Part shown: positions 2 through 2,644 of the stretch, one piece after another
How the letters are laid out: each line of letters starts with the position of its first letter
Numbering within the stretch: the stretch's first letter is position 1
Origin: an uncultured Actinomycetes bacterium
GTDB taxonomy: Bacteria; Actinomycetota; Thermoleophilia; UBA2241
Reading direction: 5' to 3'
DNA length: 64,000 bases
NCBI GenBank assembly: GCA_963767005.1
Contig: CAVYCN010000002.1
Location: forward strand, 64,001 to 128,000
Made by a program: the position numbers and the translations under genes
Notes under the pieces: generated by a model
Seen by the model: only the letters and a program-made list of their open reading frames with translations
Database searches by the model: none
Told to the model about the DNA's origin: nothing

Positions 2-541
2 GAGGGGGTGTTCCCGCACCAGCGTGCGCTCGACGAGCAGAACCTCGAGGAGGAGCGCCGCCTGGCGTACGTCGGCATCACCCGCGCCATGGACCGGCTC
101 TACCTGCTCCACGCGCGCGCCCGCACCCTGTGGGGCGGCAGCATGTACGGCCTGCCCTCGCGCTTTCTGACCGAGATCCCTGCCGACCTCGTCGAGGTCA
201 CTCGCGAGGCCGGGCCCGCCTACGGTGGCGGCTGGTCGGGCGGCGGCGCACGTCGCGGCCGGGAGCGGGGCGGCTGGAGCGACCGCGACGAGTGGCGTGA
301 GCGCGACGACGAGGGCATCGCCGGTTCGGGACGGCGCATCACGGGCCTGGAGGACAGGTCGGCGGGCGCCGTGGTCGAGCAGTTCTTCGCGCCCGGCGAC
401 CGGGTGCTGCACGCCACGCTCGGCGAGGGCACCGTGACGGCCGCCGAGGAGAGCGGCATCATCGTGGTGCGCTTCGAGAACGACGGCTCGGAGCGTCGGC
501 TGATGGCGACCATCGCGCCGCTGCGCAAGCTGCGCGCCTGA
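2..541 (+). CDS. pcrA: ATP-dependent DNA helicase PcrA/UvrD, C-terminal part (5' end outside window)
   Basis: Helicase motif VI EEERRLAYVGITRA, PSRFLxEIP, and a C-terminal Tudor-like GDRVLHATLGEGTV domain. Confidence 0.93.
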   Translation, partial: EGVFPHQRALDEQNLEEERRLAYVGITRAMDRLYLLHARARTLWGGSMYGLPSRFLTEIPADLVEVTREAGPAYGGGWSGGGARRGRERGGWSDRDEWRERDDEGIAGSGRRITGLEDRSAGAVVEQFFAPGDRVLHATLGEGTVTAAEESGIIVVRFENDGSERRLMATIAPLRKLRA

Positions 542-576: not shown

Positions 577-1203
577 TCAGGGGCCGCTGCCGGCGTCGTA
601 GACCAGCCAGCGTCCGCCGGCGTGCCGCAGGCACATGAAGACCAGGGTCTCGCCGTCGTTCCAAGCCGACACTGAGCTCGGCCGGATGTCGATCGTCATG
701 GTGAACTCGAGCGTGGTGAGCGCCGGCGGCGCGGGGTCGACCTGACGCACGTACGACACGACGCGCGCGCGCTCGATGCCGAAATAGGCGGCGGCGCGGC
801 CGCCGCGGACGGCGGCGGCGCAGGTGGAGTCGGACGTGACCACCGCGAGCAGCCCGGCGTAGCGGTGCTCGTCGATCAGCCGCCAGTAGCGCGTCGCCGC
901 GCGCAGCGCACCGGCGGGGACGGGGCCCGACGTGACGACGGCGCCGGGCGCGGGCGCGGTGGCGCCGGCGCCGGGCGCGCCGGGCGACGTGACGCCCGGC
1001 GTGGGGGAGGCGACCACGAGGTTCGCCGGCGAGCCGCAGGCGGCGAGCCACGTGGCGGGGGCGCAGGCTGCGAGGGCGGCCGCCGCAACGACGGCCGCCG
1101 CGAGCGCGACGCTGGCGACGCCGGCGCCGCGTGCGCGGCGCCGGCGCGTAAGCACGGCGCCGCGGCCGCGGTACGGCGCCGGTGCTGGAGATGCCTTGCT
1201 CAT
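577..1203 (-). CDS. hypothetical secreted protein/lipoprotein
   Basis: ATG at 1203 with GAGG upstream; Arg-rich N-terminus, hydrophobic stretch, LAAC lipobox-like motifs, Pro/Thr/Ala linker, small NTF2/DUF4829-like C-terminal domain. Confidence 0.6.
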   Translation of the reverse strand: MSKASPAPAPYRGRGAVLTRRRRARGAGVASVALAAAVVAAAALAACAPATWLAACGSPANLVVASPTPGVTSPGAPGAGATAPAPGAVVTSGPVPAGALRAATRYWRLIDEHRYAGLLAVVTSDSTCAAAVRGGRAAAYFGIERARVVSYVRQVDPAPPALTTLEFTMTIDIRPSSVSAWNDGETLVFMCLRHAGGRWLVYDAGSGP

Positions 1204-1380
1204 GCGGTCCTCCCGGGGACGGTCGGGCGATGCGCCAAACCCCACCACAGCGGCCCCGCGCTGTACAGGATGACAATGTCCGGCCCGCGCGCTTGCTGCG
1301 CGTCCTGCGCCGCAGAATGTTCGATTGTGTTGGCCGCTGTGAGCGGAAAGCGTGCGGCGCTCGTCGTCGAGCTGGGAGAC

Positions 1381-1429
1381 AAACGAAAATAAATGCACGA
1401 TTGACCACACATTCGCGCAGGGCTACAAT
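1381..1429 (+). promoter_or_regulatory. sigma70/SigA-type promoter with AT-rich upstream tract
   Basis: TTGACC (1401-1406), 17 nt spacer, TACAAT (1424-1429); aaacgaaaataaat upstream in a very GC-rich background. Confidence 0.8.
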
Positions 1430-1630
1430 GTGGGTCGTCGAGCACGCTTGGCTGTCGGCCCCGTCGCGGTGAGCGCGGGACGATCGAAGCGCGCGAGCGG
1501 CGGACGCGAGTGGGATGTACTCGTACGACGCGGTTGCTTGCAGGATCTGTGCGAGCAGGATGTTCACGCGTCCGCCGAGCGCGATCGTCGCCCGGGACCA
1601 CCCGGGACTGCGGCGCGCCGACGCGAAAGA

Positions 1631-1688
1631 GTCCGCGGCAAGACTCGTTCTCCCCCCGAACGAGCCGAGCCCCCCTCGGGCCGCGGAT
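1631..1688 (+). ncRNA. 6C RNA-like motif (two hairpins with C6 runs inside a closing stem)
   Basis: gtccgcggc/gccgcggat closing stem encloses ctcgttc-tCCCCCC-gaacgag and ccgag-CCCCC-ctcgg; this matches the architecture of actinobacterial 6C RNA. Confidence 0.6.
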
Positions 1689-1691
1689 GTC

Positions 1692-1748
1692 ACGAGGGCC
1701 GGGGCCGGAGGCGCACCAGCGCCGACCCCCCGGCCCTCGTCTTGTTCC
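1692..1748 (+). terminator. putative intrinsic terminator
   Basis: acgagggccgggg (1692-1704) pairs with ccccggccctcgt (1728-1740), followed by a weak U-rich tail cttgttcc. Confidence 0.55.
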
Positions 1749-1867
1749 ACGATCCCAGCGCCGGCGCCCGGCCCGCGGCGTAGTAGAGTTGCGCTGCGCC
1801 CACCCCGGGCCACGCGCGTGGGCCACTCCGTCGCCCGCACGCCGCAAACGACCAGGAGGGTCCGTTC

Positions 1868-2644
1868 ATGGCAGTCGAGGTCAGTCGCGACGGCGCCGTC
1901 GCCGTCGTCACGGTCGCTCGTCCCGAGGTGCTGAACGCGCTGAACTCGGCGACCAACGAGGAGCTGCTGCGCGTCGCCGGCGACCTCGGCCGCGACCACG
2001 AGGTCCGCGCCGTCGTTCTGACCGGCGCCGGCGACAAGGCCTTCGTGGCCGGCGCCGACATCAAGGAGTTCCGCGGCATGAGCCCCGAGGAGGCGCGCCA
2101 GTCGTCGTGGCTCGGGCGCCAGGCGATGGCCGCGATCGGGGCCGCCCCGCAGCCCTGGATCGCCGCCGTCAACGGCTTCGCCCTGGGCGGCGGCTGCGAG
2201 CTCGCCCTCGCCTGCGACATCCGCTTCGCCGCCGAGAACGCCCGCTTCGGGCAGCCCGAGGTCACCCTCGGCATCACGCCGGGCTGGGGCGGCACCCAGC
2301 GTCTGCCGCGCGAGGTCGGCAACGGCTGGGCCTCGTACCTGTGCCTGAGCGGCCGCCTGATCGACGCGGCTGAGGCGCTGCGCATCGGCCTCGTGCAGCG
2401 CGTGGTCGCGCGCGACGAGCTCATGCCGGCGGCGCTCGAGCTGGCCGCCGAGATCGCCGCGCGGCCGCCGCTCGCCGTGCGCTACATCAAGTCGCAGATC
2501 CACTACGCCCTGAGCGTCGACATCGAGGCCGGTCACGAGATCGAGCGCGACCTCTTCGCCCTGACGTTCGCCAGCGAGGATCGCGCCGAGGGCATGGACG
2601 CCTTCCTCGAGAAGCGCGCGCCGCGCGGGTTCGAAGGCCGTTAG
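1868..2644 (+). CDS. enoyl-CoA hydratase/crotonase
   Basis: RPEVLNALN, AFVAGADI, NGFALGGGCELALACD, FGQPEVTLG..GGTQRL; RBS aggagg. Confidence 0.93.
   Translation: MAVEVSRDGAVAVVTVARPEVLNALNSATNEELLRVAGDLGRDHEVRAVVLTGAGDKAFVAGADIKEFRGMSPEEARQSSWLGRQAMAAIGAAPQPWIAAVNGFALGGGCELALACDIRFAAENARFGQPEVTLGITPGWGGTQRLPREVGNGWASYLCLSGRLIDAAEALRIGLVQRVVARDELMPAALELAAEIAARPPLAVRYIKSQIHYALSVDIEAGHEIERDLFALTFASEDRAEGMDAFLEKRAPRGFEGR

What the first reader, a model, noticed from the sequence alone, without database searches (positions are those of the whole stretch)
1381..1748. Unannotated RNA gene of about 310 nt: long rod joined to a 6C-type double C-loop domain
Seen: a near-consensus promoter (TTGACC-17-TACAAT with an AT-rich upstream tract) points into about 310 nt with no credible ORF, ending in a 13-bp hairpin. 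The downstream crotonase has its own -10-like TAGAGT at about 1784. The first ~170 nt can fold into an irregular rod (1454-59/1617-22, 1463-70/1607-14, 1479-86/1582-89, perfect 11-bp 1498-1508/1567-77) with internal bubbles and small branch hairpins. Positions 1631-1688 form a three-way junction whose two hairpins each carry a run of six C. Established: actinobacterial 6C RNA has two C-rich loops that pair with G-rich mRNA sites; Ms1 and 6S are long bubbled rods that bind RNA polymerase; in mycobacteria 6C and Ms1 are separate neighbouring genes. Inference: this may be an extended 6C RNA, or one bifunctional RNAP-binding and base-pairing RNA, in a deep actinobacterial lineage. Caveat: stems arise easily at this GC content.
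Basis: partly seen in the sequence, partly recalled or inferred. Interest (0 to 1): 0.8.

Follow-up and report, generated by a model that had tools for sequence, protein, structure and literature searches.

The report
Genus-specific 300-nt C-loop RNA gene
This gap holds a conserved stretch with no shared reading frame, a near-consensus promoter and no match to any catalogued RNA family, found only in one genus of uncultured actinobacteria; it likely makes a ~305-base folded RNA whose two C-rich loops likely block ribosome-binding sites of other messenger RNAs, while its equally conserved middle domain is unexplained.

Summary
The promoter is invariant in 18 of 18 distinct homologues; the RNA is 81% identical against 59% for the flank; no ORF is shared. 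It is modular, not a rod: 5' hairpin, conserved central three-way junction, variable hairpin, three-way junction with two C-rich loops, strong terminal hairpin. It fails Rfam 6C, Ms1 and 6S; the genome has its own 6S, RNase P, SRP and tmRNA, and no CsrA, Hfq or Ro60 was found. It occurs in 11 of 12 genomes of one genus (records labelled Thermoleophilia/Actinomycetota), always before a crotonase that keeps its own promoter, and was not found in 77 other family genomes, 19 of which were checked at the same site. Best reading (~50%): a 6C/RNAIII-like sRNA pairing its C-loops with G-rich ribosome-binding sites; dnaB is a weak candidate target. No expression data. The scan's earlier notes list no look-alike on other DNA, but do list other Thermoleophilia C-loop RNAs.

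The parts
1381..1429 (+). Promoter: A-tract (UP-like, 1381-1395), -35 TTGACC 1401-1406, 17-nt spacer, -10 TACAAT 1424-1429
   Evidence: both hexamers and the 17-nt spacing invariant in 18 of 18 homologues; 88% mean identity over 11 genomes
1437..1745 (+). Predicted RNA of about 305 nt; +1 inferred at the invariant G 8 nt after the -10; 3' end inferred just after the terminal hairpin
   Evidence: ends are inferred, no transcript data
1442..1494 (+). D1, 5' hairpin: conserved basal helix (1442-1449/1487-1494 with one A-C mismatch), variable distal stems
   Evidence: a long hairpin is the isolated minimum-energy fold in 18 of 18; basal helix 95% paired, whole hairpin 84%
1498..1577 (+). D2, central three-way junction: closing helix 1500-1508/1567-1575, hairpins 1510-1526 and 1536-1556; 44 of 80 positions invariant; function unexplained
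   Evidence: 99% of cells paired, 9 one-sided changes, no two-sided change
1578..1629 (+). D3, variable linker with a hairpin (1591-1606 here); poorly conserved (58% identity)
1631..1688 (+). D4, three-way junction: invariant closing helix 1631-1639/1680-1688, hairpin 1644-1664 with loop UCCCCCC, hairpin 1665-1679 with loop CCCCC; 41 of 63 positions invariant
   Evidence: 95.5% paired, 3 pairs with two-sided changes, 4 of 500 shuffles as high
1692..1740 (+). Terminal GC hairpin (13-bp outer stem plus inner stem), short irregular U tail; likely terminator or 3' protection
   Evidence: z below -2 in 18 of 18, mean -5.4; not called by the U-tract scanner; tails
1784..1789 (+). Separate -10 element (TAGAGT) of the crotonase gene; not part of the RNA
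   Evidence: present in 11 of 11 genus genomes and 18 of 19 loci from other genera that lack the RNA
1868..2644 (+). Downstream neighbour: enoyl-CoA hydratase (crotonase)
   Evidence: Pfam ECH_1
2..541 (+). Upstream anchor: 3' end of pcrA/uvrD helicase
   Evidence: Pfam UvrD_C, PcrA tudor
577..1203 (-). Divergent neighbour, lipoprotein-like ORF without Pfam match; similar ORF at this site in other genera
   Evidence: 'lipoprotein-like' is my reading of its N-terminus

Best explanation
The stretch is likely a stand-alone gene for a ~305-nt multi-domain regulatory RNA, likely made from its own housekeeping-type promoter, whose 3' three-way junction is predicted to expose two C-rich loops that likely pair, without Hfq, with G-rich ribosome-binding sites of other mRNAs and would block their translation. 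Shown: promoter, conservation, lack of a shared ORF, fold consistency, genus restriction, no Hfq or CsrA hit. Inferred: transcription, ends, exposed loops in vivo, trans pairing, repression. The 5' hairpin and terminal hairpin would protect the ends; the conserved central junction (D2) would be a second functional module (protein binding or tertiary scaffold) that I cannot assign. Probability that it is a real RNA gene about 0.9; that it works mainly by C-loop pairing about 0.5.
For: Promoter invariant in 18/18, rare genome-wide. RNA 81% identity vs upstream flank 59% (shuffled 52%) and crotonase 4-fold sites 74.5%. Frame-breaking indels in all 10 relatives, no 3-nt periodicity. Strand: 63 G-U cells vs 1 C-A cell in D2 helices, which fits the + strand. 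C-loops are single-stranded and the most conserved domain (92% identity); the stem under loop 1 covaries while the loops do not. Independent of crotonase: that gene keeps its own -10 with or without the RNA. No Hfq, as for 6C. Mechanistic precedent read in passages: PMC6486639 (6C loops bind G-rich RBS of panD and dnaB, at least 5 G-C pairs, chaperone-independent) and PMC2790875 (UCCC loops of RsaE and RNAIII bind SD sites). dnaB ranks 3rd-4th of 2937 predicted leaders for loop 1 in this genome; all 10 genus dnaB leaders carry a run of 4 or more G against 4 of 20 from other genera.
Against: No transcript, end or target data. The near-perfect dnaB match holds in only 2 of 10 genus genomes; in the other 8 it is a 5-6-bp match at the 7th-15th percentile of this genome's leaders, and the genus genomes are not independent. 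G6 runs are not enriched in leaders (70 observed vs 92 in shuffles). Covariation is thin: none two-sided in D2, not above shuffles in D1. The model explains only about 60 of 305 nt; D2 and the invariant sequence of the D4 closing helix point to protein or tertiary recognition as well.
Confidence: 0.5

Rival explanations
1. A compactly folded RNA that binds or titrates a genus-specific protein (scaffold or sponge); the C-loops dock inside the RNA on invariant G-runs (GGG in the D2 loop, GAGGG/GGGG after D4) or are protein sites.
For: Closing helices of D2 and D4 are invariant or nearly so in sequence rather than covarying; 44 of 80 D2 positions invariant; GGAUGU occurs three times in this copy; 5' arm of the terminal hairpin more conserved than its 3' side (87% vs 63%).
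Against: The obvious partners were not found: CsrA 0 of 89 family genomes, Hfq and Ro60/TROVE none in this genome. G-run changes after D4 in L182 and L186 are not matched by C-loop changes. No partner gene lies beside the RNA.
Confidence: 0.22
2. An RNA-polymerase-binding RNA (Ms1-, CoRP- or 6S-like), alone or fused to a base-pairing domain.
For: Length about 300 nt as for Ms1 and a strong promoter; PMC11077062 (passages) reports lineage-specific RNAP-binding RNAs unrelated to 6S or Ms1; the rod fold is nearly isoenergetic in this copy.
Against: Rod not conserved; no conserved 5'-3' closing stem or central bubble; no Ms1 or 6S match; a 6S RNA over the Rfam cut-off lies elsewhere in the genome (67.9 bits); neighbours are not those of the Ms1 synteny tables.
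Confidence: 0.1
3. A cis-acting leader or attenuator that adds regulated read-through into the crotonase gene.
For: Crotonase follows in 11 of 11 genome loci and 17 of 17 metagenome loci; U tail is weak; in 3 of 5 homologues the 5' arm of the terminal hairpin can pair with the second C-run when the 3' arm is blocked.
Against: Those alternative folds are 28-41 kcal/mol weaker; crotonase has its own conserved -10 with or without the element; the spacer varies from 94 to 230 nt; fixed synteny is expected within one genus; no riboswitch match.
Confidence: 0.1
4. Not a functional RNA: a remnant of a mobile element or a DNA-level site, conserved only by recent descent.
For: Present at this site in one genus only, so it looks inserted; hairpins arise easily at 71% GC (3 of 20 control windows also had z below -2).
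Against: Single copy; no hit in viral contigs, phages or plasmids; conservation far above flanks with sharp domain pattern; substitutions keep G-U-type pairing on the + strand; invariant promoter.
Confidence: 0.06

Closest known systems
6C RNA (Rfam RF01066; M. tuberculosis B11, S. coelicolor scr3558, C. glutamicum cgb_03605)
   Same: Two hairpin loops with runs of about six C; sigma-A-type promoter; actinobacterial host without Hfq; dnaB has a G-rich RBS in this genus.
   Different: No Rfam match; about 305 nt against a ~80-nt motif (PMC5014011, passages); loops sit on short hairpins inside a three-way junction followed by a separate terminal hairpin, while the 6C hits are two long tandem hairpins; three extra 5' domains; different gene neighbours.
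S. aureus RNAIII and RsaE (UCCC-loop sRNAs)
   Same: Structured RNAs whose unpaired C-rich motifs bind SD sites (PMC2790875, passages); RNAIII is the precedent for a long RNA with several C-loops.
   Different: No Rfam match; no shared peptide ORF here; different phylum; junction architecture.
Cuckoo/CcsR RNAs (Alphaproteobacteria)
   Same: Adjacent hairpins with pyrimidine-rich anti-SD-like loops (PMC4615179, abstract).
   Different: Loop motif is CCUCCUCCC with variable stems in 2-4 hairpins; here pure C runs, invariant stems, single gene.
Ms1 (RF02566), 6S (RF00013), CoRP
   Same: Size near 300 nt (Ms1), stand-alone intergenic gene with strong promoter.
   Different: No model match, no conserved long rod with central bubble, other synteny; a separate 6S exists in the genome.

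Membership tests
6C RNA (RF01066) | Match to the covariance model | tested here: not met
   No hit at E<=10 in 1000-2200; none on 6 homologue loci at E<=2; best genome hit 19 bits elsewhere, cut-off 47; reverse test, R1 on 7 loci with RF01066 matches, no hit
6C RNA (RF01066) | Two loops each with about six C | tested here: met
   loop 2 shows five unpaired C
6C RNA (RF01066) | Two long tandem hairpins in a ~80-nt unit, second hairpin at the 3' end | tested here: not met
   (real 6C folds)
6C RNA (RF01066) | C-loops repress mRNAs with G-rich RBS (e.g. dnaB) | tested here: inconclusive
   dnaB top 1-3% in 2 genomes, 7-15% in 8; prediction only
Ms1 RNA (RF02566) | Match to the covariance model | tested here: not met
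   (4 weak hits elsewhere, best 21 bits, cut-off 162)
Ms1 RNA (RF02566) | About 300 nt | tested here: met
   303-314 nt in 11 genomes; inferred ends
Ms1 RNA (RF02566) | Long double-stranded core with central bubble | tested here: not met
   outer rod 64% paired, ensemble 0.09-0.23
Ms1 RNA (RF02566) | Synteny with IB HAD hydrolase / oxidoreductase etc. | tested here: not met
   flanks are pcrA, lipoprotein-like ORF, crotonase vs tables in PMC9130861; a trehalose phosphatase lies one gene further in some genomes only
Ms1 RNA (RF02566) | Binds RNAP core | not testable with these tools
   needs RIP-seq
6S RNA (RF00013) | Model match; single rod with central bubble | tested here: not met
   genuine 6S at G000:C2:517626-517776
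CsrB/RsmZ-type sponge | Host encodes CsrA/RsmA | tested here: not met
   PF02599 in 0 of 89 family genomes, control positive in 3
Bacterial Y RNA | Host encodes Ro60/TROVE | tested here: not met
   (own genome only)
tmRNA / RNase P / SRP | Model match, or the genome lacks its copy | tested here: not met
   each has a separate copy over the cut-off
Riboswitch / cis leader | Known aptamer and sole promoter for the downstream gene | tested here: not met
   no Rfam hit; crotonase has its own -10

The most novel reading that the evidence does not exclude
A new class of bifunctional bacterial RNA born in one lineage: a 6C-like mRNA-silencing head (D4) fused to an uncatalogued, highly conserved three-way-junction domain (D2) that binds a protein, RNA polymerase or a ligand and gates the C-loops.
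Probability: 0.2. Interest if true: 0.75.

Novelty: new variant of a known kind. Interest (0 to 1): 0.45.

Why it matters
It adds an uncatalogued ~305-nt structured RNA family with well-defined domains from a class of Actinomycetota for which my searches found no small-RNA paper. If the C-loop mechanism holds, it extends Hfq-free C-loop silencing from 6C to a much larger, differently built RNA, and with the other C-loop elements seen in sister genera suggests that this mechanism arises repeatedly in high-GC bacteria. The central junction is a compact (80-nt) target for structure probing and partner discovery. The narrow range (one uncultured genus) limits general impact.

Tried and rejected
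tmRNA idea, raised because ARAGORN found none: Rfam finds a separate tmRNA. CsrA sponge, raised by three GGAUGU motifs: no CsrA. Remote homologue in L089 (R1, E 0.04): overlaps a multi-copy repeat that I read as an integron attC site, with an integrase-like ORF beside one copy; L088 lacks the C-loops and is not hit by the profile. Six weak R2 hits: 5 lie in listed ORFs, the sixth in the same GGDEF-type gene as two of them. Ten short BLAST hits in the class search: 4 fetched lie in ORFs, 1 was only printed, 5 not fetched. 84 viral matches to the 15-nt promoter word: none of the 84 loci has the -10 or a profile hit. Idea that the terminal hairpin is the ancestral hairpin of sister genus g11: no more alike than random hairpins. 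Long antisense target in the genome: best perfect match 20 nt, in the variable D3. dnaB as a conserved near-perfect target: downgraded. Sequencing runs: no RNA holder listed, so no reads were laid; this is no evidence either way.

Full report
Observation. The sequence at 1381-1748 is as described. The promoter scan finds one site in 800-2400, TTGACC-17-TACAAT at 1401-1429, against 0.0 expected; my own scan finds only 27 sites in the 3.4-Mb genome with at least 5 of 6 in both hexamers, this among them. The 313-nt stretch folds at z = -4.1. Rfam gives nothing over it at E<=10, and only a tRNA in the whole window at gathering scores. Neighbours are the 3' end of pcrA, a divergent ORF without Pfam match, and a crotonase.

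Conservation. BLAST finds the full element in 10 of 11 other genomes of the genus; the eleventh is 56% complete and also lacks the crotonase. A metagenome pattern scan added 17 loci, all followed by the crotonase. After removing 8 duplicates and 2 truncated loci, 18 distinct full-length copies remained. Over the 11 genomes, mean identity is 88% for the promoter, 81% for the RNA, 59% for the 120 nt upstream (52% shuffled) and 74.5% for crotonase four-fold sites. Both hexamers, the 17-nt spacing and a G 8 nt after the -10 are invariant in 18 of 18, so I place +1 at G1437 (inferred). All 10 relatives have frame-shifting indels, variation has no 3-nt period, and ORF lengths from equivalent starts scatter widely: it is not coding.

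Structure. The consistent model is modular. D1 (1442-1494) folds in isolation as a long hairpin in 18 of 18; basal helix 95% paired, whole 84%, 4 pairs with two-sided changes, not above shuffles; in full-length folds the basal helix has mean probability only 0.56. D2 (1498-1577) is a three-way junction, 99% paired, with 9 one-sided and no two-sided changes; its 63 G-U against 1 C-A cell favour the + strand. D3 is variable (58% identity). D4 (1631-1688) is the most conserved part (92%, 41 of 63 invariant), 95.5% paired with 3 two-sided pairs, 4 of 500 shuffles as high; z below -2 in 17 of 18, the miss being a mis-cut segment in my script. The terminal hairpin has z below -2 in 18 of 18 but only a short irregular U tail. 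Full-length z was below -2 in 13 of 18, against 3 of 20 control windows. Covariation support is therefore modest; the case rests on conservation, pair-keeping substitutions and the promoter.

Distribution. In 19 crotonase loci from other genera of the family the element is absent, although most keep the pcrA or lipoprotein-like neighbours, and 18 of 19 keep the crotonase -10. Models of D4 (R1) and D2 (R2) find it in 11 of 12 genus genomes and give only weak, explained or unrelated hits in the other 77 family genomes; these searches score only about 50 of thousands of candidates per genome, so remote homologues can be missed. BLAST over 401 class genomes gave full-length hits only in the genus. 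A D2 pattern over the GTDB collection gave 82 matches; of the 80 tested, 10 are full-length copies with the promoter and C-loops, 70 are not. Titles of those 10 read Thermoleophilia (2), Actinomycetes or Actinomycetota MAG. Nothing in viral contigs, phages or plasmids. It is single-copy. So it looks like a gene gained at this site in the ancestor of one genus (inference; loss elsewhere is not excluded).

What it is not. The genome has separate 6S (67.9 bits), RNase P, large SRP and tmRNA. No 6C or Ms1 over cut-off. Real 6C hits from the phylum are two long tandem hairpins, and R1 with filters off does not hit 7 loci with RF01066 matches. Six homologue loci give no relevant Rfam hit. CsrA was found in 0 of 89 family genomes, Hfq and Ro60 not in this genome.

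Mechanism. The exposed, invariant C-loops on a covarying stem are the clearest functional signature. PMC6486639 (passages) shows that 6C loops bind G-rich RBSs of panD and dnaB without chaperones; PMC2790875 (passages) shows the same logic for UCCC loops of RsaE and RNAIII. With a simple gene caller (2940 genes) loop 1 ranks dnaB 4th (own sequence) or 3rd (majority sequence) of 2937 leaders and crotonase 1788th/859th. Across the genus that match is near-perfect in 2 of 10 and a 5-6-bp match in 8 (7th-15th percentile); runs of 4 or more G occur in 10 of 10 genus leaders and 4 of 20 others, but kin are not independent. G6 runs are not enriched in leaders. This is weak support. I put trans pairing at 0.5, a protein-binding or compact-fold role at 0.22, RNAP binding at 0.1, a crotonase leader at 0.1 and a non-functional element at 0.06. 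Unexplained under the best reading: D2, the sequence-invariant D4 closing helix, the conserved promoter spacer, and the conserved 5' arm of the terminal hairpin.

Context. A search for paired C6 runs in 5 genomes of other genera (25 distinct loci folded) showed other intergenic C-loop elements: a three-way junction with two C6 loops plus terminal hairpin in G013 (L380; 67% over 82 nt, E 2.2, not significant), an element in G021, G013 and G001, and one in G177; none matches R1 or Rfam. G001 has both that element and this RNA, so they are separate families. Two earlier AI notes describe further Thermoleophilia C-loop RNAs; I did not test them. The sequence look-up found no look-alike of this stretch on other DNA.

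Literature seen. Passages: PMC6486639, PMC5014011, PMC11077062, PMC3765725, PMC2790875; passages and part 2 of 9 of PMC9130861 (no mention of Thermoleophilia); abstract and outline of PMC4615179. No supplements were read; the target lists and alignments in the supplements of PMC6486639 and PMC9130861 may bear on the comparison. Searches for a prior description found none; 'Thermoleophilia' with 'sRNA' gave one unrelated paper; subscription journals are not covered. The attC, ECF-promoter, CsrA-site and gene labels for dnaB, lysS, kdd and mrp are my recalled readings of sequence, not database calls.

Verdict. A very likely real, uncatalogued, genus-restricted multi-domain RNA that works probably like 6C/RNAIII but is not a 6C, Ms1 or 6S family member: new variant of a known kind, interest 0.45.

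Noticed in passing
window 1262-1277: Motif TGTACAGGATGACAAT upstream of the divergent lipoprotein-like gene recurs in many family loci; possibly an ECF-sigma promoter or regulator site (my reading).
   Followed up: no
L380 (G013:C1:518749-518785, -): Intergenic three-way junction with two C6 loops inside a longer helix, followed by a GC hairpin: an architectural analogue of D4 plus terminal hairpin, without significant sequence match.
   Followed up: partly
L391 (G021:C2:308636-308768), L395 (G013), L409 (G001): A ~120-nt element with C-rich loops and repeated GGA words between a kdd-like gene and its terminator, present in three genomes of three genera, absent at that site in G000; no Rfam match.
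   Followed up: partly
L378 (G177:C1:203165-203189, -): C7 run, C6-loop hairpin and U-tailed terminator near an integrase-like ORF; candidate small C-loop RNA.
   Followed up: no
L089, L231-L238 (G209, G211, G214): Multi-copy ~110-nt imperfect hairpin repeat that looks like integron attC sites, one next to an integron-integrase-like ORF and several at the 3' end of lysS: integron arrays in genus g6.
   Followed up: partly
G000:C2:234495 and C7:95359: Two near-consensus promoters overlap a CGAAC-N4-GTTCG palindrome, which reads like a Firmicute-type LexA box in this actinobacterium (label recalled).
   Followed up: no
G000:C2:16720-17069: tmRNA scores 147 bits in Rfam but ARAGORN missed it.
   Followed up: no
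G000:C15:7382-7807 and C6:244079-244503: A second smpB copy, in two pieces at a contig end; may reflect the 4.9% contamination.
   Followed up: no
L390, L404, G000:C4 near 245061: Conserved intergenic motif of two C6 runs flanking a GTTGACG word between an ABC-transporter gene and a membrane sensor-like gene in three genera; probably a promoter or operator.
   Followed up: no
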